The notes below the pieces were generated by a model that made no database searches, was not told the origin of the DNA, and saw only the letters and a program-made list of their open reading frames with translations. A stretch of DNA of 64,000 nucleotides from an uncultured virus (IMG/VR IMGVR_UViG_3300015608_002806) (Duplodnaviria > Heunggongvirae > Uroviricota > Caudoviricetes). The stretch is taken from the IMG/VR virus record IMGVR_UViG_3300015608_002806; one strand, written 5' to 3'. This document shows positions 3,683-62,724 of this stretch, in pieces. Each line of letters begins with the position of its first letter. Within the stretch, counting starts at the first letter, position 1. Position numbers and translations under genes: made by a program.

Positions 3683-4069
3683 TTATTTGACTCTTATTCC
3701 ATTTTTCCAATATTCTTGTCTTGTTGTATTTCCATCTTCATTATATACAATAATGGCAGGACCATTATCGTTATGACGTTTACCGTTTATATACCATGAT
3801 TTATATGCAACATTTCCATTTTCATAATATGAAATATAAGCAGGACCGTTCTCATTATGACGTTCATTATTTATACACCATTCTTTGTATTGAATATTTC
3901 CATTTGAATCATATACAATAACAGCAGGGCCATTCTCGTTATGCCATTTATTATTTTCATTTTTCCATATTAATTCAATTGTATATCCATCATTATTTAT
4001 TTGTGACGGTGGATTATATTTAATTCCATCAATTATTGTGTCTATTTTATAGAATGTATTTATGATCAT
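3683..4069 (-). CDS. HNENGPA-repeat (MORN-variant-like) protein, 3 repeats (family A)
   Basis: 128 aa; conserved N-cap MIINT.YK.DTIIDGIKYNPPS, 28-aa repeats, C-cap QEYWKNG. Confidence 0.9.
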   Translation of the reverse strand: MIINTFYKIDTIIDGIKYNPPSQINNDGYTIELIWKNENNKWHNENGPAVIVYDSNGNIQYKEWCINNERHNENGPAYISYYENGNVAYKSWYINGKRHNDNGPAIIVYNEDGNTTRQEYWKNGIRVK

Positions 4070-4076
4070 TTATTTA

Positions 4077-4460
4077 TTAATTCCAATTATTAAAATTTAT
4101 ATCAAAATATTTCTCTATTTGATGAACAATCTCAGTCATATATTCATATATCGAATAAGAAAATCTGTTTCCATCTGAAATATATATACTATTTGCTTTG
4201 CTGTAGGATCTTTTGAAATAAAAGAATCCAATAAATCCTTGATCTTTAATGAAATTCTCAACCTTTATCCATTCTATAAGAATGTCTCCATTTTTGTGAA
4301 ATACAAATTTTGTTGGTAAATCTTTATTTAATCTTTCTTTATTTTGATCATTTACAAATGTGAATCTTGTAAATTTTGGACAGCTATAAACATCAATTTC
4401 CTCATTTGATAATATTGGGTGTTGAAGTTGTAATATTTTTTGTTTTGTATTTATTTTCAT
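4077..4460 (-). CDS. Divergent M(K/I)INT...YFDIN family protein (family B)
   Basis: Starts MKINT; LPTKFVFHKNGDILIEW; ends KYFDINFNNWN. Confidence 0.8.
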   Translation of the reverse strand: MKINTKQKILQLQHPILSNEEIDVYSCPKFTRFTFVNDQNKERLNKDLPTKFVFHKNGDILIEWIKVENFIKDQGFIGFFYFKRSYSKANSIYISDGNRFSYSIYEYMTEIVHQIEKYFDINFNNWN

Positions 4461-4931
4461 TTATTTAATTTTTATTCCATTTTTCCAATATTCTTGTCTT
4501 ATTATGTTTCCATCTTCATCATATCCAATAATAGCAGGACCATTCTCGTTATGACATTTACCATTTATATACCATGATTTATATGAAACATTTCCATTTG
4601 AATAATATCTAATAACAGCAGGACCATTCTCGTTATGCAATTTATCATTTATCCACCATGATTTATATTTAACATTTCCATTTTCATCATATCCAATACG
4701 AGCAGGACCATTCTCGTTATGCCATTTATCATTTATCCACCATGATTTGTATTCAATATTTCCATTTAAATCATATACAATAACAGCAGGACCATTCTCG
4801 TTATGATATTTATTATTTTCATTTTTCCATATTAATTCAATTGTATATCCATCATTATTTATTTTCGATGGTGGATTGTATTTAATCCCATCAATTATTG
4901 TGTCTATTTTGTATAATGTATTTATGATCAT
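4461..4931 (-). CDS. HNENGPA-repeat protein, 4 repeats (family A)
   Basis: 156 aa; same caps and 28-aa repeats. Confidence 0.9.
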   Translation of the reverse strand: MIINTLYKIDTIIDGIKYNPPSKINNDGYTIELIWKNENNKYHNENGPAVIVYDLNGNIEYKSWWINDKWHNENGPARIGYDENGNVKYKSWWINDKLHNENGPAVIRYYSNGNVSYKSWYINGKCHNENGPAIIGYDEDGNIIRQEYWKNGIKIK

Positions 4932-4932
4932 T

Positions 4933-5283
4933 TTATTTATCCCATTTATTGAAATTTATATCTAAATAATTTTCAGTTTTGTTTTTGAATATTTGATCGC
5001 CAATAATATATTCATATTCACAAAAAAATTCATCATCATTTGATTTGGGATTATATATTTGAACATAATTGCATTTGTCTTGTCCTCTTTCAATATATTT
5101 TCCCGCTTTAAACCAAAGAAGTGCTATTAATTCATAATGACTTTCTTGTTCTATTCTTATAATAGATGGCTTGTTTGTGTCTATTTTATTATTATTGATA
5201 ACAATTATATCTGAGATAGGATGAAATTTTACATCCATTCCAGATAATAATTCATATGTTTTTGATGTTGTGTTTATTATCAT
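4933..5283 (-). CDS. Divergent M(K/I)INT...YFDIN family protein (family B)
   Basis: Start moved to MIINT at 5283 (ATGA overlap with the upstream stop); ends NYLDINFNKWDK. Confidence 0.78.
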   Translation of the reverse strand: MIINTTSKTYELLSGMDVKFHPISDIIVINNNKIDTNKPSIIRIEQESHYELIALLWFKAGKYIERGQDKCNYVQIYNPKSNDDEFFCEYEYIIGDQIFKNKTENYLDINFNKWDK

Positions 5284-5681
5284 TGTTCTGTATTCCAAAA
5301 TTGATAATTTATATCAAAATAATCCTCTGATACTGTCATCACCACTGTTGGTTTGTCTGCTGTTCCTTCTCTTATTTCATATATATATTTATTAATGTTT
5401 TTAAAAATACAATTTGGTTGATTTGGATTTTTTCGAGCTACGTATTTCACACCTTTCCACCAATAATCAGCAGGAATTCCTGGTGACATCCAAGACAATG
5501 AAACAAGTCCATTTGTACCAAAAACAAATACTGTGGGTAAATCTTGAAACAATCTTTGTTTTGTTGTTTCAGGATTAAATTTACACAAAGATACACTATC
5601 AATATTTTTTATTTGTAAACCTGGAATGGAAGATATATTATAATATATATTATTTATTTTATTTAATGTATTGATCAACAT
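5280..5681 (-). CDS. Divergent M(K/I)INT...YFDIN family protein (family B)
   Basis: Start moved to MLINT at 5681; LPTVFVFGTNGLVSLSW and QPNCI motifs; ends EDYFDINYQFW. Confidence 0.78.
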   Translation of the reverse strand: MLINTLNKINNIYYNISSIPGLQIKNIDSVSLCKFNPETTKQRLFQDLPTVFVFGTNGLVSLSWMSPGIPADYWWKGVKYVARKNPNQPNCIFKNINKYIYEIREGTADKPTVVMTVSEDYFDINYQFWNTEQ

Positions 5682-6030
5682 CTTTTTCAGCAACATCCTT
5701 TTGTTCTAAAACAAATCCACTTTTATCAAGCCAATATATTTTGTATACATTGTTTTCATCATCAAAATAAATTCTATTTGGTTTATTGTTTGATCTTATG
5801 TGATACATATCGCCATCAAACCATTCAATATTTATAATTTTTCCTAAATTAATATTAAATTCAACTATTGTCGGCCTATCATAATAAAAAAATATTTGCA
5901 TTTGTTCTTTATATGTTAAGAAATCAATATATTTTTTTTCTCCTGCTCCTGATATTTTAATATTCATTCTGCTAAACATATCTGTGTTATACATGATTCC
6001 AAATGTTTTTTTAAAGGTATTTATTTTCAT
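5659..6030 (-). CDS. Divergent MKINT family protein (family B, lacks YFDIN tail)
   Basis: Starts MKINT; RPTIVEF...GKIINIEW and KPNRIYF motifs. Confidence 0.75.
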   Translation of the reverse strand: MKINTFKKTFGIMYNTDMFSRMNIKISGAGEKKYIDFLTYKEQMQIFFYYDRPTIVEFNINLGKIINIEWFDGDMYHIRSNNKPNRIYFDDENNVYKIYWLDKSGFVLEQKDVAEKDVDQYIK

Positions 6031-6339: not shown

Positions 6340-6726
6340 TTATTTAATTTTTCTTCCATTTTTCCAATATTCTTGTTTTCCTATATTTCCATTTGAATAA
6401 TATCTAATAACAGCAGGGCCATTTTCGTTATGTAGTTTGCCATTTATACACCATTCTTTGTATTGAATATTTCCGTTTTCATAATATGCAATAAAAGCAG
6501 GACCATTCTCATTATGACGTTCATTATTTATACACCATTCTTTGTATTGAATATTTCCATTTGAATAATATTGAATAAAAGCAGGACCGTTATCATTATG
6601 ATTTTTATCATTTTCATTTTTCCATATTAATTGAATTATATATCCATTATTAATTGTTTGTGATGGTAGATTGTATTTAATTCCATCAATTATTGTATCT
6701 GTTTTGTAAAGTGTATTTATGATCAT
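6340..6726 (-). CDS. HNENGPA-repeat protein, 3 repeats (family A)
   Basis: 128 aa; same caps and repeats. Confidence 0.9.
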   Translation of the reverse strand: MIINTLYKTDTIIDGIKYNLPSQTINNGYIIQLIWKNENDKNHNDNGPAFIQYYSNGNIQYKEWCINNERHNENGPAFIAYYENGNIQYKEWCINGKLHNENGPAVIRYYSNGNIGKQEYWKNGRKIK

Positions 6727-7062
6727 TTATTTTTCCATAATGGATAAAAGTCTATCAGGAGGCATTGGTACATAAATTAATTCACCATTTTTAACATGTA
6801 AATCTGTTGGTTTTTTATTATAAAACGCAATCAAAAACCACAATGAAGGATCATTATAGTATTTTGATGCTAATTTAAAAAATTTCTCACCAAATTTCCA
6901 AGTAATTGGAATTAAATTAAATTCCAATATTTCATCTTCTGTTGGATAATTATATTCTTTTGAAATATAATGTGTTATTGATTTCATTTCTCTTTGAGAG
7001 AGAAAAGAAGAATAAGATTCAGATTTTGTTATTTTTTCATCTCTTGATTCATTTCTATTCAT
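6727..7062 (-). CDS. LysM-like baseplate protein (P2 gpX / T4 gp53-like)
   Basis: GEKFFKLASKYYNDPSLWFLIAFYN...GELIYVP LysM-type pattern; lies downstream of tape measure and tube initiator. Confidence 0.72.
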   Translation of the reverse strand: MNRNESRDEKITKSESYSSFLSQREMKSITHYISKEYNYPTEDEILEFNLIPITWKFGEKFFKLASKYYNDPSLWFLIAFYNKKPTDLHVKNGELIYVPMPPDRLLSIMEK

Positions 7063-7067
7063 TTTTT

Positions 7068-7391
7068 TTACTCAATTGGCCATGGAATATTAGTTTCTTG
7101 TTCAAATTTTTTAACTGCTTCAATTGTTTTCTTTTCTTGCTCTATTAAGCTTTTTGAAACAAATCCTTCTTTTTGAGCCAAGAGAAAGAATTTTCTTTCT
7201 TCTTTTAAAGCATTAATAAATGCATCAATTTGAGATTTTGTTCCTTTTAATTTAATATTCTTATTTTCATTTAATTTTGAATTTTTAACAAACCACTTAA
7301 TCCATTCGCCAAATGTGGCAAGCCATGATTCATTTAATTCATCAGAATTATATGAATTTTCATTTTCAAAAATAATTGTAAATTTATTCAT
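7068..7391 (-). CDS. Hypothetical phage protein
   Basis: 107-aa co-oriented ORF ending FEQETNIPWP. Confidence 0.7.
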   Translation of the reverse strand: MNKFTIIFENENSYNSDELNESWLATFGEWIKWFVKNSKLNENKNIKLKGTKSQIDAFINALKEERKFFLLAQKEGFVSKSLIEQEKKTIEAVKKFEQETNIPWPIE

Positions 7392-7403: not shown

Positions 7404-7706
7404 CTATTTAATCTTTATTCCGTTTTTCCAATATTCTTGTCTTATTATGTTTCCATCTTCATCATATCCAATAATAGCAGGACCATTTTCGTTATGTTCT
7501 TTACCATTTATATACCATGATTTATATTCAACATTTCCATTTGGATAATATTCAATAAAAGCAGGACCATTCTCGTTATGACATTTACCATTTTCTTTTT
7601 TCCACATTAATTCAATTACATTTCTGTAATTATTTATTTGTGATGGTGAATTGTATTTAATCCCATCAATTATTGTGTCTATTTTATATAATGTATTTAT
7701 TTTCAT
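7404..7706 (-). CDS. HNENGPA-repeat protein, 2 repeats (family A)
   Basis: 100 aa; same caps and repeats. Confidence 0.9.
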   Translation of the reverse strand: MKINTLYKIDTIIDGIKYNSPSQINNYRNVIELMWKKENGKCHNENGPAFIEYYPNGNVEYKSWYINGKEHNENGPAIIGYDEDGNIIRQEYWKNGIKIK

Positions 7707-12352: not shown

Positions 12353-12907
12353 TTAAAAGACTTCAGGTTCAGCCCAATCGAATCTAAGTGTCATTTCAAT
12401 TGTTAAAATTTCATGACTTTTATAATCCAATGTTCCAAAATTTAATTTTGAAAACCAAGGATTTTTCAGTGTCCAAGTTTCAATAGGGTCGCCATTATGA
12501 TTTAATTGTGTAATTTTAACTTGACCAATTGCAGTAGCAGCTTCTTTTTTGGAAACTGTTCTCTCTGCGTTTTTACCAGTTTCATCTGTGCCAATCCACT
12601 TATTAGGAAAATAATAGCCTGAATCTTTCAACATTTTCATTAAAGCTCTTGCTACGTTTGGATTAACAGCATCATAAAATGTAAAATCAATTGGATCCCA
12701 TTTTACTTTGCCGGGGTAATAAAAGGTGTGATTGAGCCAATTGGCCTCTGCTTCACTTATTTGAGCAGATGGTTTCTTGGCAGCTGCCACCGCAAATCTT
12801 GGAATGACAGCACCTTCACCACCTTGACCTGTACCAATGTCAACAACGAATGTGTGTTGTCTTTTGGGTTCGCTTAAAACTGATGACCAAAAATTACCGT
12901 TTGCCAA
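12353..12907 (-). CDS. Tail tube protein (T4 gp19-like)
   Basis: EPKR..F, YPGKVKWDPI.FTFYD, IETWTL, FG.LDY, LRFDWA; follows sheath; TTG start with AGGAG SD. Confidence 0.88.
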   Translation of the reverse strand: MANGNFWSSVLSEPKRQHTFVVDIGTGQGGEGAVIPRFAVAAAKKPSAQISEAEANWLNHTFYYPGKVKWDPIDFTFYDAVNPNVARALMKMLKDSGYYFPNKWIGTDETGKNAERTVSKKEAATAIGQVKITQLNHNGDPIETWTLKNPWFSKLNFGTLDYKSHEILTIEMTLRFDWAEPEVF

Positions 12908-16694: not shown

Positions 16695-18959
16695 TTATCC
16701 CCTTATTGTACCTGTGGCTCCTAAATACGATAAAGCTGTTTCCCATGTAATTAATTGATCTCCATTAGAAAGGGATGGATAATCATCAGATCTGTATGGA
16801 AACATATACATTGAGTTGTACATTGGTGCCTCACTCCATTTTGAGCCCAATAAAGAGTTTGGACCATATGTGGAGCCTGATGTGGTTAATACATATAATC
16901 TATTATTTGAATTTCTAACATGATACGAATCAACAACATATCCATTTGGTGAACCAACAAACAAATCATCTGTTTTATCAAAATATGTAAATTTATAAAA
17001 TCCATCACCTGATGCTTGAGTAACAGCCAAGCAATCCCCAGTCTTTTTGCTATATAAATAAACATTATTAGATGAAGAATTTGCACCTGTTAAATTTTGT
17101 ATTCGACCAAATATATCATACGATATTGAATTATATGTATATATAAGTTCTGACTGAGCGTAGGATGAAGACAGCGTGTTGGCGTGTGAATAAATTGAAA
17201 ATGTTCTAGATAATGTGGGAATTAAATTATTTAATTTTGCATCTTGTTTAAATTTTCTAAAAAAGGAAGAATAATCATCCCATATATTTAAAAAGCACAT
17301 TTCTGATCCTAAAAATACGCTTTTTATATTTGTATAACATCCAGAAAAATTAAAAATATTTTCTTGCTTATCGAAAGTTAATGATGTGCCAGGACACATA
17401 GCGACGAGTGCGTTGTAATGCCATTTATATATTGATCCAAATGAATTTAAGTAATAATTATTTTCAGGTATGCTAGCTGAATTTGTTCCTGTAAATATAA
17501 CTGCAAAAACAGGATTGGTTTGCTGTGGTGTTATATTTAATTTAAAAATTGTTTTATTATGACAGTCTGAACCATTTGTATGTTTGTCGCTAATATAATT
17601 TAAACACAGCATTCCTTCGACATAAGGAACACACCTAAGCGATGAAGCTGTATTTCTAAACATTAAATTAATATTATTGTTTCCATTTGTAATTTTAAAA
17701 TTACTTGGTCTTAAGGAACCAGAGTGATTATCAAATCTTACAGAAAATGGCGTTGTTCTTTTTTGAGAAGTAACAAGATTGCCCTGAAATGGAAATGTTT
17801 GTTGTGTTTGTTCAATTACATCAAATAAGGGAGACAAGGTGGTTGTTGTTGAAATATTCCCTAAAAAAGCGCAATTTTTTGTTTCAATATTTCCAGGTTC
17901 ATTTGCTAAAAATGATATTTTTGTCCACGCGCCACTTGTTGGTTGGTTAGCTGAACCTAATTGATTTTCAATATTTAATTCTATTGGAAATATAACAGAA
18001 TTTAAAATTCTTGATGATAAATTTTCATCATATTCATATGTTAAATAACAAACTGGCTGATGATAATGCCATCTTGTTGCCACAAAGACGCTTTGAAGAA
18101 AATACAAGGATTTAGTACCCGAAAAACTTTCAGTTAAATCATTTCTTTTGAATAAATTGTAAATATTATTGGTTGAGCCCTGCACAAAACTTGGACTACT
18201 AAAAGACATCACCCCTATACCAAAAGAATTTGGCACATCGCTTCCTCTTATATTAAAAGAACAAGTTTGAGCAGTTATTGTGCTAACTGATATTGATGAA
18301 TTTATTTCTATAAAAAAATTTTTATAAACTATACCAGATTCAGGTAAAAATATATCAAATGCTGGTATTGGATTTATATCAAGTACTGAATGGGTTGGAC
18401 CTATTGGGTTGCCAATTGAGGCTGATACTTGAGAGCCTGTGTTTCCTTGGAGTGGTATTCTAATTGTTTTAATTTTTTTTGCAACGCCTGTGTCGTCATA
18501 CTTATATGTCACAATAGCTTTGCATGTTAAATTTACAGGATTTATTAATCCACCAATTGCTCCATTGCTTTGTGTAAAAGCAAATGTTGCAGTTAGTCCC
18601 TTTTCTGTTCCTGAAAGAAAATGTGTATTAAAATCATTAGTAGCATCGCACCATGTTTCAAAATTAAAATTTTCACCTGTGTCAGTAATGGAACAAGTTA
18701 ATCTATTGTTTGTATATGTTGCTGCTCCATCAAGTTTTGTCTGAACATTGAAACTATTTAAATTTGCTCTTAGTGTAGTATTACTGCTAGTATTAAGCCA
18801 ATTTATTTTTAAATAAACAGATTCAAACACTCTACTTGCTGTTTCTGGCAAATAAAGCAATTCAGGAACCCATTGTGCAACAATAAGCCCGGTTGAAGCA
18901 GACAAAGGGCCCGGAAGTGTTTCAAATCCCCATTCTATTGTTTTAATTCTTTCAGCCAT
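16695..18959 (-). CDS. Large hypothetical virion protein, beta-rich, with possible internal duplication
   Basis: 754 aa, Ser/Thr-rich; repeated (K/R)IKTI and TY.YD motifs; structural context. Confidence 0.6.
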   Translation of the reverse strand: MAERIKTIEWGFETLPGPLSASTGLIVAQWVPELLYLPETASRVFESVYLKINWLNTSSNTTLRANLNSFNVQTKLDGAATYTNNRLTCSITDTGENFNFETWCDATNDFNTHFLSGTEKGLTATFAFTQSNGAIGGLINPVNLTCKAIVTYKYDDTGVAKKIKTIRIPLQGNTGSQVSASIGNPIGPTHSVLDINPIPAFDIFLPESGIVYKNFFIEINSSISVSTITAQTCSFNIRGSDVPNSFGIGVMSFSSPSFVQGSTNNIYNLFKRNDLTESFSGTKSLYFLQSVFVATRWHYHQPVCYLTYEYDENLSSRILNSVIFPIELNIENQLGSANQPTSGAWTKISFLANEPGNIETKNCAFLGNISTTTTLSPLFDVIEQTQQTFPFQGNLVTSQKRTTPFSVRFDNHSGSLRPSNFKITNGNNNINLMFRNTASSLRCVPYVEGMLCLNYISDKHTNGSDCHNKTIFKLNITPQQTNPVFAVIFTGTNSASIPENNYYLNSFGSIYKWHYNALVAMCPGTSLTFDKQENIFNFSGCYTNIKSVFLGSEMCFLNIWDDYSSFFRKFKQDAKLNNLIPTLSRTFSIYSHANTLSSSYAQSELIYTYNSISYDIFGRIQNLTGANSSSNNVYLYSKKTGDCLAVTQASGDGFYKFTYFDKTDDLFVGSPNGYVVDSYHVRNSNNRLYVLTTSGSTYGPNSLLGSKWSEAPMYNSMYMFPYRSDDYPSLSNGDQLITWETALSYLGATGTIRG

Positions 18960-19275
18960 TATAATCCTTTATAAATAATTTCCAAATATCTAAAAAATTT
19001 TTAATATTACATTCGTCGCTTTCGTAGTATTCTTGATTGTTTAATTTATAATTAATATTATCCCCATTTCTGTTTATAATTAAACTTGAACCATTTTCTA
19101 AATTCCAAATTATTTCAAAAATCCAACCCCTATCGTAGAAACAATCTTTATTTTGTTTTTTCCACTTTCCAGAAATATTATAATTTAATCTATCTGGTTC
19201 TATCCAAATCAATCCAGCGGATTCAACTATTGATTGAAATCTATAAATACAATCATTTATAACATTAATTATCAT
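18952..19275 (-). CDS. Hypothetical protein
   Basis: 107-aa ORF overlapping both neighbours' stop/start. Confidence 0.65.
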   Translation of the reverse strand: MIINVINDCIYRFQSIVESAGLIWIEPDRLNYNISGKWKKQNKDCFYDRGWIFEIIWNLENGSSLIINRNGDNINYKLNNQEYYESDECNIKNFLDIWKLFIKDYNG

Positions 19276-21794: not shown

Positions 21795-21803
21795 ATTTGG
21801 GTA

Positions 21804-31249: not shown

Positions 31250-31804
31250 TTATTTAATTTGTTTTCCATTTTTCCAATATTCTTGTTTTGTTATTTTTCC
31301 ATTTCCATCATATTCAATAATGGCAGGACTATTCTCATTATGGCGTTTACCATTTATGTACCATGATTTGTATTTAATGTTTCCACTTGAATAATATGAA
31401 ATATAAGCAGGACCATTCTCATTGTGGCATTTACCATTCACAAACCATGATTTATATTCAATATTTCCATTTTGATCATATCTAATAATAGCAGGACCAT
31501 TTTCATTATGCAGTTTATTATTTATCCACCATTCTTTATATTTAACATTTTTATTTTCATCATAATAAATAACAGCAGGGCTATTTTCATTATGGCGTTT
31601 ACCATTTATGCACCATTCTTTATATGAAACATTTCCATTTTGATCATATTGAATAACAGCAGGACCATTTTCGTTATGATGTTCACCATTTTCATTTTTC
31701 CATATTAATTCAATTGAATATCCATCATTATCTATTTCCGATGGTGGATTGTATTTAATCCCATCAATTATTGTATCTGTTTTATAGAATGTATTTATGA
31801 TCAT
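31250..31804 (-). CDS. HNENGPA-repeat protein, 5 repeats (family A)
   Basis: 184 aa; same caps and repeats. Confidence 0.9.
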   Translation of the reverse strand: MIINTFYKTDTIIDGIKYNPPSEIDNDGYSIELIWKNENGEHHNENGPAVIQYDQNGNVSYKEWCINGKRHNENSPAVIYYDENKNVKYKEWWINNKLHNENGPAIIRYDQNGNIEYKSWFVNGKCHNENGPAYISYYSSGNIKYKSWYINGKRHNENSPAIIEYDGNGKITKQEYWKNGKQIK

Positions 31805-31806: not shown

Positions 31807-32292
31807 TTATAAATTATATCCATAAAATGTGTCACTATATGTTGAATATCTTGGCATTGTTCCATCTTCTGATTTTTGAGGTATTTCTCCTAATTCTGTT
31901 GAATTTTCATCAGATGGATCTGTTAATTCATCCTCAAATTCTTCTTTTCCTTGCATTGCTCTGTTGTAATATTCTTTTTCAATAACCAAAAATTCATATA
32001 ATGTTTTAAGAACAACATTTAACGCTTTTAACTCTTTAGAATCTGCATATGTCGCTTCTGTACTTTTATAAACAGCCCCACCTCTAACTGAGGCTGGATC
32101 CACCAATCCTTTTTCAACAAGAAAATCAAACATTTTTTTTGAAGCTAAAAATATTTCCTCATCAATCTTTTCTGCTTTTGGTGTTGTTAAGATTTTATTT
32201 GATTGTGGTGATACAAAAATCAAAAGTTTTGGATGATCATATATAATTAAATTATTGTCAAGAGTTTTTCTTATATTTAATTTAATTTTCAT
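31807..32292 (-). CDS. Hypothetical protein (head region)
   Basis: 161 aa with acidic C-terminus STELGEIPQ. Confidence 0.7.
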   Translation of the reverse strand: MKIKLNIRKTLDNNLIIYDHPKLLIFVSPQSNKILTTPKAEKIDEEIFLASKKMFDFLVEKGLVDPASVRGGAVYKSTEATYADSKELKALNVVLKTLYEFLVIEKEYYNRAMQGKEEFEDELTDPSDENSTELGEIPQKSEDGTMPRYSTYSDTFYGYNL

Positions 32293-32675
32293 TTAATTCT
32301 TATTCCATTTTCCCAATATTCTTGTCTTATTATGTTTCCATCTTCATCATATCCAATAATAGCAGGACCATTTTCATTATGCAATTTATCATTTATATAA
32401 CATTCTTTATATGCAACATTTCCATTTTCATCATATTCAATATAAGCAGGACCATTTTCATTGTGGCATTTACCATTTGCGCACCATAATTTATATGAAA
32501 TATTTCCATTTGGATAATATGAAATAATAGCAGGACCATTGTCGTTATGTAAATTATTATTTTGATTTTTCCATGTTAATTCAATTGATTGTCCATAATT
32601 AAATATTTTCGATGGCGGATTGTATTTAATCCCATCAATTATTGTGTCTGTTTTGTATAATGTATTTATGATCAT
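32289..32675 (-). CDS. HNENGPA-repeat protein, 3 repeats (family A)
   Basis: 128 aa; same caps and repeats. Confidence 0.9.
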   Translation of the reverse strand: MIINTLYKTDTIIDGIKYNPPSKIFNYGQSIELTWKNQNNNLHNDNGPAIISYYPNGNISYKLWCANGKCHNENGPAYIEYDENGNVAYKECYINDKLHNENGPAIIGYDEDGNIIRQEYWENGIRIK

Positions 32676-43760: not shown

Positions 43761-44975
43761 TTACGAATCCAAAGTCAATTTAAAACAATATGACTCATTT
43801 TCTTTTTTAAGAATTGGTGTTGCTAATTTAGCAACAGCATAATGTTTTTTGTCAGCATTGTAAAGATTTATATAAGATATAAATGTTTGTTTTTGAAATT
43901 TATTATATTTTTCTTCAGACCATGAAGCAGATGGAATATTTTTAATTAATAAATTATCATTTTCACAAAATGAATATTGTGTATAGCTGGCACTTAATGT
44001 TTGTTGTCCCCACTCTATATATGATGGATTGGTTGTACTATTAAGTTTTCCAGCAGGAGCTTTGCAAAAAATTGTTTTTGTATTAATTGTTGTGGTTCCT
44101 CTGAACTTAATATAATAATCTGAATAATTTATATCTGTGTCTGTTAGTGATGATGGTGCTGCTCCAAAGTGATATGGGTTTAAACGACTATCTGGGCCTT
44201 GGGAGCCTTCATAGTAAAAATATTCTGTATCAAGATCGACAGTTTCAAAAAATAAAAACGTACCTTCATCATATAAAACCATTCCCATAGTGCTTCCTGT
44301 ATATGATGGATTATATAATGAATAAGTTAATCTTAATAATCCATCGCCATATAAATCTTCTGCTGTTGCCACTAATTTTTTATTTGCATAAAAAGATAAA
44401 TAAGTAGATTTTTTTTGAATAGATGAACCAAAATATGCCCTTGGCAACATCAGCACAGTAAATCCATATGTATACAAATAATTAATAACACTTTCATGAT
44501 CAATAAGTGGAAAAAAAGAACCACTATATGCAAAAAATGCATTATTAAATTTCCATAAATTTTTATATTTTAATATTGAATTTTTTAAGGCTGTAAATTT
44601 AACATATAAAGAAGAATCACTAACTAAATCATATTGAGGTCTTAAATACCATCTTTGATGTTTTAATTGAGACAAATAGGATCCTGTAACCAAATCACCA
44701 TATTCAATATTGTTTTCATTATTTGGTGATGACATAAATCCAACCAAATCTGATGTTTTGGGCGACAATGGGTAAATTATTTGATCTGCATTGTCTCTGC
44801 GAACGGTTCCACCATTAATTGGATAAACAATAATTGAAGATGTTAAAACAGATGGCGCTTCTTCAATTTTTCTATCAACATAAACACCTGATTGCATAAT
44901 TGCAATCTCTTTTAAGGGATTAAGTTCAATTATGTTATCATAAATATCATCATCTGTAAATTTAAAATATGACAT
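43761..44975 (-). CDS. Baseplate / tail-associated structural protein
   Basis: C-terminal IFC....LN.TTNP...FISYINLY......AVAKL.TP.LK domain, paralogous to 46346..47362. Confidence 0.65.
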   Translation of the reverse strand: MSYFKFTDDDIYDNIIELNPLKEIAIMQSGVYVDRKIEEAPSVLTSSIIVYPINGGTVRRDNADQIIYPLSPKTSDLVGFMSSPNNENNIEYGDLVTGSYLSQLKHQRWYLRPQYDLVSDSSLYVKFTALKNSILKYKNLWKFNNAFFAYSGSFFPLIDHESVINYLYTYGFTVLMLPRAYFGSSIQKKSTYLSFYANKKLVATAEDLYGDGLLRLTYSLYNPSYTGSTMGMVLYDEGTFLFFETVDLDTEYFYYEGSQGPDSRLNPYHFGAAPSSLTDTDINYSDYYIKFRGTTTINTKTIFCKAPAGKLNSTTNPSYIEWGQQTLSASYTQYSFCENDNLLIKNIPSASWSEEKYNKFQKQTFISYINLYNADKKHYAVAKLATPILKKENESYCFKLTLDS

Positions 44976-45445
44976 TATTTAATTTTTATTCCATTTTTCC
45001 AATATTCTTGTTTTATTATATTTCCATTTTGTTCATATTCAATATAAGCAGGACCATTGTCGTTATGTAATTTATCATTTATATACCATGATTTATATGC
45101 AACATTTCCATTTGGATAATATTCAATAAAAGCAGGACCATTCTCGTTATGACGTTCATTATTTATCCGCCATTCTTTGTATTGAACATTTTTATTTCGA
45201 TAATATTGAATACAAGCAGGACCATTCTCGTTGTGATATTTACCATTTATGCACCATTCTTTATATAAAACATTTCCATTTTGATCATATTGAATATAAT
45301 CAGGGCCATTTTCATTATGATATTCACCATTTTCATTTTTCCATTGTAATTCAATTGTATATCCATCATTATTTATTTGTGACGGTGGATTATATTTAAT
45401 TCCATCAATTATTGTATCTGTTTTGTAGAATGTATTTATGATCAT
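44975..45445 (-). CDS. HNENGPA-repeat protein, 4 repeats (family A)
   Basis: 156 aa; same caps and repeats. Confidence 0.9.
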   Translation of the reverse strand: MIINTFYKTDTIIDGIKYNPPSQINNDGYTIELQWKNENGEYHNENGPDYIQYDQNGNVLYKEWCINGKYHNENGPACIQYYRNKNVQYKEWRINNERHNENGPAFIEYYPNGNVAYKSWYINDKLHNDNGPAYIEYEQNGNIIKQEYWKNGIKIK

Positions 45446-45861: not shown

Positions 45862-45873
45862 AACATTTTTTCC

Positions 45874-46335: not shown

Positions 46336-46345
46336 TTAAAAAAAA

Positions 46346-58950: not shown

Positions 58951-61900
58951 TTATCTTATTTTCAGAATCTTTTGAGGATATATACCATTTTGTTCTTGGG
59001 CTTTCCATGTAAATTTTCCAATTTTTTCACCTCTTTGTGATTCTGCCCATTGGTTTTGCATTGCTGCTGTATTAATTATGCGACCATCAAAATTATATTC
59101 TTTTGTTTTGATAAATGATTCATAATATTTTACTTTATTTCTTTCAAGAATATGACTTTCTATTACATTCAAAACACCTTGAGATGAATTCATAGAAGCA
59201 GGTATTATTTGTCTAATAATTTCAGAAATAGAATTGTCAAACCATTTATAATATCTTAAATACGAGTCCACTTTTTTAACATTATTTAATTTTGAAAAGA
59301 AAAATTCTCTTATTTTTTCCAAAGATTTATATGAGTGTCTATATTTTTCGTATTCATTTCCTATTAAATCATTAAATTCCTCTGTTGAATGAAATAAATT
59401 TAAAATTTCTTCATTTATTACACTATACATACTATTTTCGATTGTATAATAAAATTTTGAAGGATGTTTTTGTTTATCAAAATAATAACTTTCATCATCA
59501 TCAATTTGTATAAAATCTGATCCATTAAAATTTCCAATTTCTCTATTTTTACCAACTACAACATAGTTGTTATCAATCATTGAATCATCATTTACATTAA
59601 ATCCATATCCCTTTCCTGTAATTTTTTTATCAAAATGATAAGCATAATCACTTTCATCTGTAATACTATTATGTAGATAAGAAGTTCCAGAAATCAATGA
59701 TTCAACATATAAATTTCCATTAGAATTAGAACCAGTAATATTTTCAAAATCCCATACCATAATTGGTGTCATATAATTAGGTAAATAAAGCTGAGGTATT
59801 CCTGTGCCATAAGCGGTATTATTATATTCAGCAACATTTTGAATAATATTAAATGGTCTTGAAGATGATATAGTTCCGTAATTAAAAACATCAATTGCAT
59901 GATTTTTTAAAATATCAACATCGAATGTGTTGACATATATTTTTGATGAAATAAATTTTGCTAATGTTGGACAAACAACAGAACCTGTGAAATTTGTTCT
60001 ATATGCACCAATGAATGGTTTTTTATCCATTGCCATCCATTGTGATATTGTAAAATTTGGATATCCTTCAAAAGTATTTTGATCAATAGTAGCAGAAATA
60101 ACAAAACTATCAACAATTTCTCCACCAGCAACTTTGTTTCCATATAAAAACAAACAATTATTATATTCATTTGGATATGAACTAAATATTAAATCAGAAG
60201 ATCTTGTTGCTTGTAATGCAAGAGTCCATTGAGTATCACTGTAAACATCCAAATATTCTGTTTCTGCTGATTTTATGCCATTTCCACCAGATAATCTTAA
60301 TATAAATTTAGCTTTTGATGAATTTTTTTCTTTTTTAGAAATAAAAATTATTGATGAACTGCAAAATGTTCCATCATATTTTTCTGTATTTGTTTCATTT
60401 GTATTTTGAAACCACGTTCCATTACCCTCCAAATAATAACCAACAGGAATTAAACCAAATAAAGACGCAGATGTATATGATTCAGGAATTTGTCGATAAA
60501 ACAAATCCAATTCATTGTCAAATTTTGGAAAATTTATTGTTGTCTCAAAACACAGTCCGCCGCTATCATTTTCATTTGTATTAAAAGGAATATATGCAAT
60601 TTCATCTCCAATATTTTCATTTAAAACATGAGAAAATACATTACAATTAATATTATTGTAATTATTTAACCCAGATAAATCTAAAAATTTCTTTTTTCTC
60701 AATGTAATATTTCTGTTATTTGTTATTTTAAATTTTTCTTTATCTGAATAAATTTTTATTTTCAACAAATCATCATCAACACCAAAAGATCGGAAAACAT
60801 TTCTAAATGACTCTTGCGTTCCTTTTGATTTATAAATTGATAATAAATTATTATATATATTTTTATATATATGTGATTTAATTTTTTCTATATTTCTTTC
60901 AAATATTATTCTTTCGTCTTTATTGTTAAAATATTCATTTTCAGATATTGTTGAAAAAATATCTGAAACTAATAAACCATGACTTTCAAGAAGTCTAGAT
61001 GCTACTTCAAAATTATAAGAACCTGATTCTAAATAATTTACATTTCTAACTTTTGTTAATTCTGAAATTTCTAGAAAAATTTCATCAAATTTAGAACCAA
61101 CAATATGAGAAAGTTTCATCAGATCTTGATTTGTGTCATAATCTTCATCTTGAATGTGTTGTGGAAATAAATTTAAAAATGAATTACCATTTTTATTATC
61201 ATATTCTTGACCAATATCTGAATAATATGATTGTGTATACAATACATCTGTATGAAAATTATAAATTATTGGATCTTGTTGTTCATATAGTCCATAATCA
61301 ATATATGCGGAACCAGTATTTCTAAAATTTGATGAATATCCAATAAAATATCCATTAGTATTTCTTCCAGAGTAATCTAAAATATTTGCATCAATTGATG
61401 ATGTTTGTGTTATTCCTTCATTGAATTTATAATAAACACCCAATGATGAAGAAATTATTTCATTGTCTGAATTTGTACCTCCATAAACATTGCAATACCA
61501 ATTCTTTTTTATTTCCTCTTCTGTTAATGCTCTTTTCCAAAATCTAAAATCATCAATATATGTATCGTATAATGGATTATATCCATCAGACAATGATGAA
61601 CTGCAAACAGAACCTATTGTTCCTGTTAATGAAATTAATTGACCCAAAACAAGTCCAGTTTGATTGTTTGTTATTGTTGTGTTGCTTTTTTGACCATTTA
61701 TCCATAAACTTAATACAGATTTATGACCTGAGCTATTTGTATAGCTAACAACAGCTGTGATTTGTTTCCATCCTAATCCTAACAGTTTAAATGTACCACT
61801 GTTTCCTGTAAAAATATCAGTTGAACCATTTTCAGCACCTAAGCTTGCGTTACCTGCAATATAATTGCTAATGTTCCATGTGTATAAATTTAGACAATTA

Positions 61901-62505
61901 ATTGGATTGCCAATAGAGCCAGAATTTGTCCATAAACTAACAAGCGCCTCATAATCAGTTGATTGTCTTGATTTATATCCATCTTTTTTAACCCAGAACT
62001 GAACAGTAAAACCATCTTCAGGATAGAAACCCAAATTAATATCTCTTGTTGATGATAAATAAATATTATCTACATTTAATCCACTTTGAGACATTTGAAT
62101 ATATCTTGTGTTTGTATATTTTTTAAATATTGAAGAAACAGTATCTGTTAATGATCCTATATTTGTATCAAAATATATACATCCTCTTGATTTTGGATAA
62201 ATATTTTCATATATATAATCATCCACATAAGATGAAGATATATGCCATTCAATTATTTCTTTTTGTGAGCCGTCATATGGAAATGTATTGTATATTCTTG
62301 AAAAAGAATTATTGTAATATTCTTTTGCTAAACCAAATTTAACAAAATTATCAGGAATTGAAAAATTTATATTTGGAAAATTCTTTTTTTTATAAGAATT
62401 TGCAGCAACAATTAGACCAGTGCTTTCAATAGATGAAGTAAATTCATCTAATGATGTATTTGTTTGTATTGCTTTAGATTCTTCAAAAAGTGATTTAATA
62501 CTCAT
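58951..62505 (-). CDS. Large baseplate wedge-like protein with LamG domain
   Basis: FTVQFWVK...LWING...IDDFRFWKRALT.EEI; FDEI...I, YKSKGT..S......FG (P2 gpI / T4 gp7-like); VIE.HILERNK. Confidence 0.7.
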   Translation of the reverse strand: MSIKSLFEESKAIQTNTSLDEFTSSIESTGLIVAANSYKKKNFPNINFSIPDNFVKFGLAKEYYNNSFSRIYNTFPYDGSQKEIIEWHISSSYVDDYIYENIYPKSRGCIYFDTNIGSLTDTVSSIFKKYTNTRYIQMSQSGLNVDNIYLSSTRDINLGFYPEDGFTVQFWVKKDGYKSRQSTDYEALVSLWTNSGSIGNPINCLNLYTWNISNYIAGNASLGAENGSTDIFTGNSGTFKLLGLGWKQITAVVSYTNSSGHKSVLSLWINGQKSNTTITNNQTGLVLGQLISLTGTIGSVCSSSLSDGYNPLYDTYIDDFRFWKRALTEEEIKKNWYCNVYGGTNSDNEIISSSLGVYYKFNEGITQTSSIDANILDYSGRNTNGYFIGYSSNFRNTGSAYIDYGLYEQQDPIIYNFHTDVLYTQSYYSDIGQEYDNKNGNSFLNLFPQHIQDEDYDTNQDLMKLSHIVGSKFDEIFLEISELTKVRNVNYLESGSYNFEVASRLLESHGLLVSDIFSTISENEYFNNKDERIIFERNIEKIKSHIYKNIYNNLLSIYKSKGTQESFRNVFRSFGVDDDLLKIKIYSDKEKFKITNNRNITLRKKKFLDLSGLNNYNNINCNVFSHVLNENIGDEIAYIPFNTNENDSGGLCFETTINFPKFDNELDLFYRQIPESYTSASLFGLIPVGYYLEGNGTWFQNTNETNTEKYDGTFCSSSIIFISKKEKNSSKAKFILRLSGGNGIKSAETEYLDVYSDTQWTLALQATRSSDLIFSSYPNEYNNCLFLYGNKVAGGEIVDSFVISATIDQNTFEGYPNFTISQWMAMDKKPFIGAYRTNFTGSVVCPTLAKFISSKIYVNTFDVDILKNHAIDVFNYGTISSSRPFNIIQNVAEYNNTAYGTGIPQLYLPNYMTPIMVWDFENITGSNSNGNLYVESLISGTSYLHNSITDESDYAYHFDKKITGKGYGFNVNDDSMIDNNYVVVGKNREIGNFNGSDFIQIDDDESYYFDKQKHPSKFYYTIENSMYSVINEEILNLFHSTEEFNDLIGNEYEKYRHSYKSLEKIREFFFSKLNNVKKVDSYLRYYKWFDNSISEIIRQIIPASMNSSQGVLNVIESHILERNKVKYYESFIKTKEYNFDGRIINTAAMQNQWAESQRGEKIGKFTWKAQEQNGIYPQKILKIR

Positions 62506-62724
62506 TTATTTAATTCTTATCCCATTTTCCCAATATTCTTGTCTTGTTATATTTCCATCTTCATCATATACAATAATGGCAGGACCATTCTCGTTATGAA
62601 AATGACCATTTTCATTTTTGCATATTAATTCAATTGTATATCCATCATTATTTATTTTCGATGGTGGATTGTATTTAATTCCATCAATTATTGAATCAAT
62701 TTTGTATAATGTGCTTATTATCAT
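62506..62724 (-). CDS. HNENGPA-repeat protein, 1 repeat (minimal family A member)
   Basis: 72 aa: N-cap, single repeat and C-cap. Confidence 0.88.
   Translation of the reverse strand: MIISTLYKIDSIIDGIKYNPPSKINNDGYTIELICKNENGHFHNENGPAIIVYDEDGNITRQEYWENGIRIK

What the first reader, a model, noticed from the sequence alone, without database searches (positions are those of the whole stretch)
3683..62724. Nine dispersed, quantised HNENGPA-repeat genes: a candidate self-spreading, diversifying cassette system in a phage
Seen: nine intact paralogues (3683-4069, 4461-4931, 6340-6726, 7404-7706, 24866-25420, 31250-31804, 32289-32675, 44975-45445, 62506-62724) share near-identical N- and C-caps at DNA level. 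They differ by exact 84-bp units, giving 72/100/128/156/184 aa (1-5 repeats). They are scattered singly among tail, neck, head and baseplate genes rather than in one tandem block, all co-oriented with the operon. No transposase, recombinase or reverse transcriptase is recognisable in the window. Known: HxxxGPA/MORN-variant beta-hairpin repeats occur in phage and giant-virus proteins. Inference: a recently and repeatedly mobilised mini-gene that forms a modular binding-protein repertoire (for example anti-defence or immunity-like binders), or a selfish coding element.
Basis: partly seen in the sequence, partly recalled or inferred. Interest (0 to 1): 0.92.

Follow-up and report, generated by a model that had tools for sequence, protein, structure and literature searches.

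The report
Dispersed MORN-like repeat gene family, phage
An uncultured, AT-rich tailed phage carries a dozen or more small genes built from one to five copies of a 28-residue beta-hairpin unit, wedged between its structural genes; they look like an old, diversifying set of binding proteins and not like an actively jumping element.

Summary
Nine intact minus-strand ORFs of 72/100/128/156/184 aa share a 42-aa N-cap, 1-5 HNENGPA motifs spaced exactly 28 aa (84 bp) apart, and a C-cap. Three independent IMG/VR assemblies reproduce eight of them without indels.

"Near-identical" is overstated. Caps are 80-97% identical in DNA, and same-length copies are 81-85%.

Related phages have no family member. 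At 7 of 9 sites the flanking genes abut directly in relatives, so the copies are lineage-specific insertions at stop/start junctions.

Nothing indicates current mobility:
- Synonymous divergence is about 0.2-0.4.
- No mobility enzyme or terminal repeats were found.
- Both loci examined are occupied in strains from three studies each.

The proteins model as a MORN-like beta-hairpin sheet (pLDDT 88.9). Six fixed positions per unit and the second half of the N-cap show dN/dS above 1. The scaffold and first 22 residues are under purifying selection. Units are mosaic between genes.

The leader MxINT heads 14 ORFs, including a second small-protein family.

Verdict: a diversifying binder family with unknown targets. 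It is a new variant of a known kind.

The parts
3683..4069 (-). HNENGPA-repeat gene c3683, 128 aa, 3 motifs
   Evidence: reproduced in G002; environmental orthologue P0012 has the same length
4461..4931 (-). HNENGPA-repeat gene c4461, 156 aa, 4 motifs
   Evidence: reproduced in G002
6340..6726 (-). HNENGPA-repeat gene c6340, 128 aa, 3 motifs
   Evidence: reproduced in G002; site empty in G007; orthologue P0017 has the same length
7404..7706 (-). HNENGPA-repeat gene c7404, 100 aa, 2 motifs, MKINT start
   Evidence: reproduced in G001 and G002; site empty in G007 and L046
24866..25420 (-). HNENGPA-repeat gene c24866, 184 aa, 5 motifs; internal two-unit (168-bp) duplication
   Evidence: reproduced in G001 and G003; site empty in G007, G005 and L049; the only copy tested that passes the Pfam MORN_2 cutoff
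31250..31804 (-). HNENGPA-repeat gene c31250, 184 aa, 5 motifs
   Evidence: reproduced in G001; lies in a five-gene block absent from G005
32289..32675 (-). HNENGPA-repeat gene c32289, 128 aa, 3 motifs
   Evidence: reproduced in G001; lies in a five-gene block absent from G005; orthologue P0003 has the same length
44975..45445 (-). HNENGPA-repeat gene c44975, 156 aa, 4 motifs; its ATGA supplies the stop codon of the upstream gene
   Evidence: reproduced in G001; site empty in G008 and G009; contigs of runs X1, X6 and X9 enter it from the flank
62506..62724 (-). HNENGPA-repeat gene c62506, 72 aa, 1 motif (N-cap joined directly to C-cap), MIIST start
   Evidence: site empty in G008 and G009; not covered by an independent assembly; P0008 has the same caps but is 128 aa
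30898..31224 (-). Diverged family member, 108 aa (MNILT start, HNENGPT motif, C-cap KEYWKNGKKI)
   Evidence: hhalign against A1: probability 98.5%, E 2.7e-15
3278..3682 (-). Second small-gene family (A3) member, 134 aa, MKINT leader
   Evidence: (A1 against A3 hhalign: probability 92.5%, E 4.8e-7)
4077..4460 (-). A3 family member, 127 aa, MKINT leader
4933..5283 (-). A3 family member, MIINT leader (start taken at 5283)
5280..5681 (-). A3 family member, MLINT leader (start taken at 5681)
5659..6030 (-). A3 family member, 123 aa, MKINT leader

Best explanation
This is a lineage-specific multigene family of small, soluble MORN-like beta-hairpin repeat proteins in an uncultured AT-rich myovirus.

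Each gene has three parts: a conserved N-terminal leader and cap, a variable number (1-5) of 28-residue hairpin units, and a C-cap.

The family arose in this phage lineage after it split from its sequenced relatives. It probably began in the accessory array at 3.3-7.7 kb. It was then copied into stop/start junctions between structural and replication genes. There each copy is co-transcribed, and probably translationally coupled, with the late operon (inferred).

Length differences come from unequal recombination or slippage between the 84-bp units. Sequence diversity comes from positive selection at six surface positions per unit and in the second half of the N-cap, reshuffled by short-tract recombination between the dispersed copies.

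The products most likely act as a repertoire of binding proteins that share one docking or leader end and differ in their binding faces (inferred). Their targets are unknown. The family is not an active mobile element today.
For: Anatomy:
- Nine ORFs have exact 28-aa spacing, and the 84-bp arrays contain no indels.

Insertion, not ancestral:
- 0 of 7 related phage records searched (G005-G011, 12-152 kb) hold any family member at E <= 0.01. The same search finds the family in G001-G004.
- In G007 the neighbours of c24866, c7404 and c6340 are 2-12 nt apart.
- In G005 the gene before c32289 overlaps the protease start by ATGA, so a five-gene block with two copies is missing.
- In G008 and G009 the neighbours of c62506 directly abut (2 nt in L077). 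In place of w45442 plus c44975 there are only 16-23 nt.

Old, not recent:
- Same-length copies are 81-85% identical in DNA.
- dS is 0.42 in N-cap codons 1-22, 0.26-0.32 in the units and 0.20 in the C-cap.
- GC content of the copies (25-27%) equals that of the phage.

Native to the operon:
- Gaps to neighbouring genes are -4 to +25 nt.
- 22 of 60 junctions in the window have gaps of -4, -1 or 0, so the copies follow the phage's own packing style.

Fold:
- AlphaFold2 gives pLDDT 88.9 and pTM 0.82, all beta-hairpins.
- The Foldseek top matches are MORN1, radial-spoke MORN proteins, SET7/9 and junctophilin, at E 1e-3 to 1e-2 and TM 0.4-0.48.
- Pfam MORN_2 is the only family matched.

Selection:
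- The same six hypervariable positions are found in both halves of a split sample, with omega 2.6 (bootstrap P(omega<=1) = 0.067) and 5.0 (P = 0.007). The remaining positions give 0.29-0.46.
- N-cap codons 23-42 give omega 6.8 (bootstrap lower bound 2.3). Codons 1-22 give 0.11.

Shuffling:
- The two halves of a unit have different nearest neighbours in other genes, some at 100% identity.
- Exact shared tracts reach 83 nt between genes that are about 83% identical overall.
- The PHI test on N-cap + first unit + C-cap had 0 of 2000 permutations as low as observed.

Unit-number change:
- c24866 contains a 168-bp two-unit duplication at 92% matches.
- Environmental protein P0008, from a 119-kb contig, has c62506's caps (98% and 100%) but 128 aa instead of 72.

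Shared leader:
- M[IKL]I[NS]T occurs 14 times in the six-frame translation, always at a minus-strand ORF start. Shuffled windows give a mean of 0.44 (max 2 in 100), and G007 has none.
Against: - No function was tested. 'Binder' rests on fold, the selection pattern and analogy.
- Structural matches are weak. Foldseek gives no match below E 1e-3, and VIA-align's best Z of 7.6 is in the range the tool itself calls common.
- Only 1 of 4 copies tested passes Pfam's MORN_2 cutoff.
- The dN/dS estimates use non-independent pairs, few synonymous sites and a recombining alignment. One split-sample bootstrap includes omega = 1.
- The PHI test is not significant for the caps alone (p = 0.36 and 0.43). 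Its positive result depends on treating first units as positionally homologous.
- The relatives with empty sites are distant (29-77% protein identity). The timing and direction of each event are therefore inferred by parsimony, and loss in relatives is not formally excluded.
- Most repeat-number variants come from 521-800-bp short-read contigs, which may be collapsed or chimeric. c62506 itself has no independent assembly, so its 72-aa form could be a collapse.
- Late expression and translational coupling are inferred from position only.
Confidence: 0.7

Rival explanations
1. An active, self-spreading coding cassette: a selfish mini-gene that still copies itself into new gene junctions. It would use a recombinase encoded elsewhere in the genome, or the microhomology AAATAAATG found at both of its boundaries.
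For: - Homology ends exactly at the ORF boundaries.
- 7 of 9 sites are empty in relatives.
- Most copies are bounded on both sides by the same A-rich stop/start words, TAAATG or ATGA.
- Only about a third of the estimated genome is in the window, so an enzyme could lie outside it. CheckV rates the 44-kb fragment at 24% complete.
- One strain (run X6) has about 750 extra bases in the intergenic gap next to c44975.
Against: - No two copies are more than 85% identical over their full length, and dS is about 0.2-0.4.
- No transposase, integrase, homing endonuclease or reverse transcriptase was found in 64 kb.
- No inverted or direct terminal repeats extend beyond the phage's ordinary junction words, which 22 of 60 junctions share.
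- Synonymous sites of the conserved leader vary freely, so the conserved element is the peptide and not a DNA site.
- Both loci examined are occupied in strains from three studies each.
- Strong purifying selection acts on the scaffold.
Confidence: 0.08
2. YwqK-type immunity or antitoxin proteins: each copy neutralises a different host or competitor polymorphic toxin or abortive-infection effector, as databases suggest when they name relatives 'YwqK family antitoxin'.
For: - Relatives in the protein collection are named 'antitoxin component YwqK' by JGI.
- The nearest Atlas clusters carry that automatic name and are 95% viral.
- Diversifying surfaces fit an arms race with variable toxins.
- A small HTH_3 protein lies beside two family members just outside the window.
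Against: - No NCBIfam model, YwqK or otherwise, reaches its cutoff, and PADLOC gives no hit.
- No toxin-like neighbour is recognisable next to any of the nine copies, and the neighbours differ at every site.
- The names are automatic transfers through the MORN_2 repeat.
- Placement in the late operon is odd for a protein needed early in infection, unless it is packaged.
Confidence: 0.12
3. Virion accessory or assembly proteins: small beta-hairpin modules that decorate or chaperone the neighbouring structural proteins, or bind host surface glycans. Their aromatic-rich repeats would act like cell-wall or glucan-binding repeats.
For: - All copies are co-oriented with, and packed into, head, neck, tail and fibre-like gene clusters.
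- Structural look-alikes include single-layer beta-sheet domains of phage baseplate and spike proteins, and sugar-handling proteins, at Z 5-7.6.
- Invariant Y/W/N positions occur in every unit.
Against: - There is no common neighbour among the nine sites.
- Relatives build virions without any family member, so the proteins are not needed for assembly.
- The structural matches lie in the range the tool calls common.
Confidence: 0.1
4. Assembly artefact: the dispersed copies or their quantised lengths result from short-read mis-assembly of a repeat.
For: - Logan contigs of four runs all break inside the copies, and several chimeric joints link c44975 to c62506.
- Environmental 128-aa variants on 521-800-bp contigs look like collapsed or chimeric forms.
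- c62506 has no independent assembly.
Against: - Three IMG/VR contigs from different records reproduce eight copies with identical unit numbers and unique flanks, with at most one gap in 17-44 kb.
- Every copy has its own N-cap 'barcode' and is an intact ORF fitted in frame between different genes.
- Flank-to-copy junctions are seen in contigs of several studies.
Confidence: 0.03

Closest known systems
MORN-repeat proteins (Pfam MORN_2 PF07661; solved examples MORN1 6T69/6T4R/6T4D, SET7/9 1H3I, junctophilin-2 9UO9/7RXE, radial-spoke MORN proteins)
   Same: Tandem beta-hairpin units form an elongated sheet. MORN_2 is the only Pfam family matched, and all the best Foldseek matches are MORN proteins. 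The known examples are protein or lipid interaction modules (general knowledge, and PMC5753266 passages).
   Different: The unit is 28 residues with the signature HNENGPAxIxYxxNGNxxYKxW. PMC5753266 Table 1 gives the canonical MORN repeat as 23 aa. Only 1 of 4 copies tested passes the Pfam cutoff. There is no sequence match to any solved chain. TM-scores are 0.4-0.48. The proteins here are tiny, stand-alone, phage-encoded and multi-copy.
Repeat-domain multigene families of giant viruses and large phages
   Same: These are lineage-specific expansions of small repeat-protein genes with variable unit number, thought to be interaction modules. Earlier notes of this scan describe dispersed, unit-shuffling MORN-like families that are missing from close relatives in other large phages (unchecked AI notes, not evidence).
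   Different: Here the copies lie inside the late structural operons at stop/start junctions, without their own promoters or terminators. They share a conserved N-terminal leader with a second small-protein family, and they use a 28-aa unit. Two searches of the held paper library for such a family in a tailed phage returned nothing relevant (one search gave only the giant-virus review).
T4 internal proteins with a capsid targeting sequence (IPI, IPII, IPIII, Alt)
   Same: A set of otherwise diverse small phage proteins shares only a short conserved N-terminal leader. [quoted passage not shown] Here 14 ORFs of two families share MxINTxxK. The peptide is under purifying selection (omega 0.11) while its synonymous sites vary. 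AlphaFold leaves residues 1-8 unstructured.
   Different: No sequence relation was tested or claimed. Cleavage by the prohead protease and presence in virions are untested. The bodies here are one repeat family, not unrelated folds.
PeSL regulatory cassettes and mini-circles of T4-type phages (PMC2839356 abstract read; PMC4122927 search listing only)
   Same: Small non-essential genes are moved and shuffled between related phages by recombination at short repeated boundary sequences, without any transposase. This is the nearest documented route for cassette-like gene movement in large myoviruses.
   Different: PeSLs are promoter plus stem-loop terminator modules lying in intergenic DNA. The copies here have gaps of -4 to +25 nt to their neighbours, which leaves no room for such modules. 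The repeated boundary is only the phage's ordinary stop/start word. No circles were looked for.
YwqK immunity protein of the B. subtilis YwqJ LXG toxin (PMC8321402, search listing only) and MORN2 expansions in Fusobacterium (PMC4222103, search listing and start of abstract only)
   Same: Both share the MORN_2 repeat type. Database names of relatives come from YwqK. The Fusobacterium case shows that this repeat family can expand to many copies in one genome.
   Different: There is no toxin partner and no curated-model hit. The context is phage structural operons, not bacterial toxin loci or secreted virulence factors.

Membership tests
Pfam MORN_2 (PF07661) repeat proteins | Score at or above the gathering cutoff (29.6 bits) | tested here: inconclusive
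   Of 4 copies tested, c24866 scores 30.0 bits (passes), c3683 18.5 and c7404 19.1 (fail), and c62506 has no hit.
Pfam MORN_2 (PF07661) repeat proteins | Beta-hairpin repeat sheet fold like solved MORN proteins | tested here: inconclusive
   The model has pLDDT 88.9 and is all hairpins. The Foldseek top matches are all MORN proteins, but at E 1e-3 to 1e-2 and TM 0.4-0.48. VIA-align gives MORN4 Z 6.3 and SET7/9 Z 6.7, below the level the tool regards as distinctive.
YwqK-family antitoxin / immunity proteins | Match to a curated family model | tested here: not met
   NCBIfam scan of 4 copies: no YwqK model listed, and only sub-threshold chance hits.
YwqK-family antitoxin / immunity proteins | Adjacent cognate toxin gene | tested here: not met
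   The neighbours of the nine copies are all different. They are structural proteins or proteins of unknown function, and none matches a toxin family in Pfam, PHROGs or PADLOC.
Autonomous or non-autonomous mobile element (IS, MITE, integron cassette, homing element) | Associated transposase, integrase, homing endonuclease or reverse transcriptase | tested here: not met
   None was found among 59 (PHROGs) and 51 (Pfam) window proteins. The only related hit is a RuvC-like resolvase. The rest of the genome was not available.
Autonomous or non-autonomous mobile element (IS, MITE, integron cassette, homing element) | Conserved terminal repeats, recombination site or target-site duplication outside the ORF | tested here: not met
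   Similarity falls to background within about 6 nt upstream and at the stop codon. The boundary words are the phage's ordinary junctions.
Autonomous or non-autonomous mobile element (IS, MITE, integron cassette, homing element) | Near-identical copies and presence/absence polymorphism among close strains | tested here: not met
   Full-length identity between copies is at most 85%. Contigs from three studies each enter c44975 (X1, X6, X9) and c62506 (X1, X5, X9) from the flank. The other seven loci were not examined in other strains.
PeSL-type shuffling cassettes of T4-type phages | Flanking promoter plus stem-loop terminator modules | tested here: not met
   Gaps to neighbours are -4 to +25 nt, leaving no room for such modules. 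No promoter or terminator scan was run.
Diversity-generating retroelement targets | Reverse transcriptase and a template repeat, with adenine-specific variation | tested here: not met
   No reverse transcriptase is present in the window. The variable codons keep their third-position A or T, as read from the alignment. There was no formal test, and the rest of the genome was not seen.
T4-type internal proteins with a capsid targeting sequence (works-like comparison only) | Short N-terminal leader shared by otherwise divergent small proteins | tested here: met
   14 ORFs of two families start with M[IKL]I[NS]T, against 0.44 expected by shuffling. The leader has omega 0.11 with dS 0.42.
T4-type internal proteins with a capsid targeting sequence (works-like comparison only) | Packaging into the prohead, cleavage by the prohead protease, ejection with the DNA | not testable with these tools
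   This needs virion proteomics. Three family genes do lie between the portal and prohead protease genes.

The most novel reading that the evidence does not exclude
The conserved, unstructured N-terminal leader (MxINTxxK...) may be a packaging or targeting peptide, analogous to the T4 capsid targeting sequence. It heads the nine HNENGPA genes and a second small-protein family. Under this reading the phage loads its virions with a repertoire of a dozen or more injected repeat binders. Their hypervariable faces would neutralise different host defence or toxin proteins on entry. This would be a phage-borne, germline-encoded 'binder library' kept diverse by positive selection and by unit shuffling between dispersed copies.
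Probability: 0.18. Interest if true: 0.8.

Novelty: new variant of a known kind. Interest (0 to 1): 0.5.

Why it matters
Large phages carry many small genes of unknown function. This case shows a clear evolutionary pattern. One beta-hairpin repeat scaffold was copied into at least nine junctions between essential genes. It is kept intact by selection, resized in exact 28-residue steps, and diversified at fixed surface positions.

If the targets are host defence or toxin proteins, the family would be a natural library of compact binders. It would also be a new class of phage counter-defence.

The shared leader offers a testable handle on how phages address accessory proteins, for example into the capsid. 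The precise, translation-coupled insertion into stop/start junctions also illustrates how accessory genes can colonise core operons without disrupting them.

Tried and rejected
- **Own genome:** not held. The nearest records G001-G003 turned out to be the same phage at 99.7-99.98% identity, so they give assembly support but no divergence information.
- **Phage GenBank collection:** megablast of 20 kb found no match. By protein, the nearest cultured phages have only 26-30% sheath identity. Host and taxon remain unknown.
- **Cap-bearing relatives:** IMG/VR held only the same phage plus one 40% relative. JGI metagenome contigs gave 10 loci; nine match at 28-41% identity and one is an 18-residue piece at 61%. 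GTDB genomes held none. The second protein search found only 9 cap-bearing proteins, all 127-128 aa, so no wider length distribution could be drawn. P0009-type relatives are not in IMG/VR.
- **Read laying:** Logan contigs break inside the copies, so neither the unit numbers nor c62506's 72-aa form could be confirmed or refuted. The many 'joints' between c44975 and c62506 have short sides and are most likely repeat-induced chimeras.
- **Structure of the second family (A3):** pLDDT 54.3, too poor to search with.
- **Single A3 members against A1:** weak or insignificant (E 0.26, 0.003, 5e-4). Only the profile-profile comparison supports kinship.
- **Sequence search of solved structures:** no match.
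- **PADLOC and NCBIfam:** nothing above cutoff.
- **Rfam on the window and on the GC-rich island:** nothing above gathering scores, and only chance miRNA-like hits on simple repeats.
- **DGR-type mutagenesis:** considered and rejected. No reverse transcriptase is present, and the third codon positions are constant.
- **PeSL-type cassettes:** rejected because there is no intergenic room.
- **Recent foreign acquisition:** rejected because the copies' GC content equals the phage's.
- **This scan's notes:** nothing for this genome or sequence.
- **Supplementary files of the cited papers:** not consulted.

Full report
**What is there**

The window is the structural and replication core of an AT-rich (about 28% GC) contractile-tailed phage. 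Almost all genes lie on the minus strand. Recognised genes:
- tail sheath, 12929-15814
- tail tube, 12353-12907
- baseplate proteins
- portal, 33721-36999
- large terminase, 37011-38663
- prohead protease, 30062-30631
- primase, 40446-41384
- RuvC-like resolvase, 41359-41937

The nearest cultured phages share only 26-30% sheath identity. The same phage turns up in wastewater, river and related metagenomes: 20 runs from 13 studies hold part of a test stretch.

Nine intact ORFs lie at the stated coordinates. They align throughout.

Each consists of a 42-aa N-cap, 1-5 HNENGPA motifs exactly 28 aa apart, and a 30-aa C-cap. This gives 72, 100, 128, 156 and 184 aa. Tandem Repeats Finder reports period 84 with 0% indels in seven of them. 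It also reports a 168-bp period (92% matches) in c24866, which is a two-unit duplication.

DNA similarity begins about 6 nt before the ATG and ends at the stop codon. The flanks are at background.

Three IMG/VR contigs from three records are the same phage (99.66-99.98% identity). They reproduce eight of the copies with the same unit numbers, with at most one gap in 17-44 kb. c62506 lacks such support.

- N-cap: 80-93% DNA identity.
- C-cap: 80-97% DNA identity.
- Same-length genes: 81-85% in DNA and 69-75% in protein.

**The family is wider than nine genes**

- w30898-31224 is a diverged member (hhalign probability 98.5%).
- Contig G002 runs 1.8 kb past the window's left end. It carries a 190-aa and a P0022-like (230-aa) HNENGPA protein with other N-termini, beside a small HTH_3 protein.
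- Five further small ORFs (3278, 4077, 4933, 5280, 5659) form a second family. They are 27-32% identical to one another. As a profile, this family matches the first over its N-terminal 91 columns (hhalign probability 92.5%, E 4.8e-7). Single members do not match convincingly.
- Both families start with M[IKL]I[NS]T. The motif occurs 14 times in the six-frame translation, always at a minus-strand ORF start. Shuffled windows give a mean of 0.44 (max 2 in 100), and relative G007 has none.

**The copies are insertions into a conserved backbone**

Seven related phage records (G005-G011, 12-152 kb) hold no family member at E <= 0.01. The same search finds the family in G001-G004.

Site by site:
- **G007** (sheath 64% identical, w25421 homologue 77%): the genes that flank c24866 are 12 nt apart. 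The gene before c7404 is followed after 2 nt by the w6727 and w7068 homologues, and then directly by the next gene. The c24866, c7404 and c6340 sites are therefore empty.
- **G005:** the gene before c32289 overlaps the protease start by ATGA. The whole five-gene block 30638-32675, with two copies and w30898, is missing.
- **G008 and G009:** the neighbours of c62506 directly abut (2 nt in L077). Only 16-23 nt stand in place of w45442 plus c44975.

That makes 7 of 9 sites. The other two copies lie in the accessory array at 3.3-6 kb, which has no counterpart in these relatives.

The relatives are distant, so gain in this lineage is a parsimony inference.

**The copies are not recent and show no sign of current movement**

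- Synonymous divergence is 0.42 in N-cap codons 1-22, 0.26-0.32 in the units and 0.20 in the C-cap. Environmental strains differ from the window by only a few percent.
- GC content of the copies equals that of the phage.
- No transposase, integrase, homing endonuclease or reverse transcriptase is recognisable. About two thirds of the genome was not available.
- The boundaries are the phage's ordinary stop/start words. 22 of 60 junctions in the window have gaps of -4, -1 or 0, and the copies' gaps to their neighbours are -4 to +25 nt. This leaves no room for their own promoters or terminators, so co-transcription and translational coupling with the late operons are inferred.
- Logan contigs from three studies run from the unique flank into c44975 (X1, X6, X9). 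Contigs from three studies do the same for c62506 (X1, X5, X9). These loci are therefore occupied in strains a few percent apart.
- All contigs break inside the copies, so unit numbers could not be checked this way.

**What the proteins look like**

AlphaFold2, run on a 13-sequence alignment, gives a confident model (pLDDT 88.9, pTM 0.82) of consecutive beta-hairpins. Residues 1-8 are below pLDDT 50.

Fold and family evidence:
- Foldseek's best matches are all MORN proteins (MORN1, radial-spoke proteins, SET7/9, junctophilin), but weakly: E 1e-3 to 1e-2, TM 0.4-0.48.
- An exhaustive VIA-align search gives single-layer beta-sheet domains at Z up to 7.6, which the tool calls a common level.
- Pfam finds only MORN_2, and only the 184-aa copy passes the cutoff.
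- There is no sequence match to any solved chain.
- NCBIfam and PADLOC give nothing.
- Database relatives number 478 at E <= 0.001. Some are named 'YwqK antitoxin', and the nearest Atlas clusters are mostly viral.

**How the family evolves**

Within the 21 internal units, nine positions are invariant. Variation is concentrated at positions 8, 10, 13, 18, 23 and 28.

A split-sample test finds the same six positions in both halves. dN/dS in the held-out halves:

| Held-out half | omega at the six positions | Bootstrap P(omega<=1) | omega at other positions |
|---|---|---|---|
| First | 2.6 | 0.067 | 0.46 |
| Second | 5.0 | 0.007 | 0.29 |

The N-cap splits sharply. Codons 1-22 give omega 0.11 with high dS. 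Codons 23-42 give omega 6.8, with a bootstrap lower bound of 2.3.

Because the leader's synonymous sites vary freely, what is conserved is the peptide and not a DNA site.

Units are mosaic:
- The first 48 nt and the last 36 nt of a unit often have different nearest neighbours in other genes, some at 100% identity.
- Exact shared tracts reach 83 nt between genes that are about 83% identical overall.
- A PHI test on N-cap + first unit + C-cap is significant (0 of 2000 permutations). It is not significant on the caps alone (p = 0.36 and 0.43).

Unit number changes too:
- P0008, from a 119-kb contig, has c62506's caps but 128 aa.
- P0004 has c24866's caps but 128 aa.
- P0003, P0012 and P0017 match c32289, c3683 and c6340 in length.
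- All of these except P0008 and P0003 come from contigs under 3 kb (P0004 and P0012 under 800 bp), so collapse or chimerism cannot be excluded.

**Most likely mechanism**

Shown:
- The family is lineage-specific and dispersed.
- The copies sit at insertion sites that are empty in relatives.
- The copies are old.
- The fold class is a beta-hairpin repeat sheet.
- Selection is site-specific.
- Units are mosaic between genes.

Inferred:
- Copies spread from the accessory array by illegitimate or short-homology recombination at A-rich stop/start junctions.
- Lengths change by unequal exchange between 84-bp units.
- The proteins are made late.
- They act as binders with a common N-terminal docking or leader end and individual binding faces.

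The targets are unknown.

The boldest reading that the data allow is that the leader works like the T4 capsid targeting sequence. PMC3012670 (section 6, passages read) describes that sequence as the only conserved feature of the diverse, defence-countering T4 internal proteins. Three family genes lie between the portal and the prohead protease. I put this reading at about 0.18.

**Comparison with what is known**

- Repeat-protein multigene families, MORN included, are documented in giant viruses (PMC5753266, passages read).
- MORN2 expansions are documented in Fusobacterium (PMC4222103, search listing only).
- Cassette shuffling without a transposase is known from PeSL modules in T4-type phages (PMC2839356, abstract read). 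The copies here lack such modules.
- Earlier AI notes of this scan describe similar dispersed MORN-like families in other large phages. I did not test those notes, and they are not evidence. They do suggest that the kind recurs.
- Two searches of the held paper library found no description of such a family in a tailed phage.

I therefore rate this a new variant of a known kind. Its distinctive features are the 28-aa unit, the shared leader across two families, and seamless insertion into late operons.

Noticed in passing
window 1-3000 (peak 600-1800): A GC-rich island (45-53% GC in a 25-28% GC phage) with no clean gene structure. It contains a 218-aa ORF (637-1293, minus strand) with no Pfam or PHROG hit, and several short imperfect tandem repeats between 2367 and 3051. 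There is no Rfam family above threshold. Contig G002 differs from the window by a 40- versus 79-nt stretch at about 2030-2110. This may be a foreign insert or a large non-coding element.
   Followed up: partly
window 29345-29587 (-): An 80-aa ORF resembles ribosomal protein S21 (Pfam PF01165, 26.5 bits, just under the 27.0 cutoff). It lies in the head module, and a homologue is present in relative L049.
   Followed up: no
window 6727-7391 compared with G007 32589-33253 and L046: The order of the two small baseplate-region genes w6727 and w7068 is swapped relative to G007 and L046. In the window the pair is bracketed by copies c7404 and c6340. This is a possible rearrangement linked to the family.
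   Followed up: no
window about 46087 (intergenic gap 45861-46346): A 6.4-kb Logan contig of run X6 carries about 750 extra bases here that the window lacks. Relatives G008 and G009 have only 16-23 nt between the flanking genes. This looks like an insertion hotspot; the extra sequence could not be read.
   Followed up: no
window 16695-22742: A block of about 6 kb encodes a 754-aa protein, a 107-aa MIINV-start ORF, and Big_5 Ig-like / beta-propeller proteins (19272-21794, 21804-22742). It is absent from G007, where the w22777 and w15884 homologues are adjacent. It is probably a lineage-specific fibre or adhesin module.
   Followed up: no
window: 3' ends of the copies (for example 3683-3700, 62506-62525): The C-cap coding sequence ends ...AATGGAATAAnAATTAAATAA. 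This places GGA about 15 nt before the next gene's ATG. It resembles the AAGGAAT(N7-8)ATG spacers at the empty junctions of G007, so the inserted gene may restore a ribosome-binding site for its downstream neighbour.
   Followed up: no
L023:284-523 (G002, beyond the window's left end): A 79-aa HTH_3-like protein (19 bits, below cutoff) lies between two HNENGPA-repeat genes that lack the MIINT cap.
   Followed up: partly
window 27177-28139 (-): A cupin / mannose-6-phosphate-isomerase-like domain is fused to a methyltransferase-like domain, inside the head gene cluster.
   Followed up: no
proteins P0007, P0009, P0011, P0015, P0024, P0075 (JGI metagenomes): Another lineage carries multi-copy proteins with almost the same HNENGPA unit placed at the N-terminus, and one constant C-terminal tail. 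Lengths are 158 versus 214-216 aa, a difference of two 28-aa units, and several lie on one 23-kb contig. The quantised-repeat design therefore recurs with a different constant end.
   Followed up: partly
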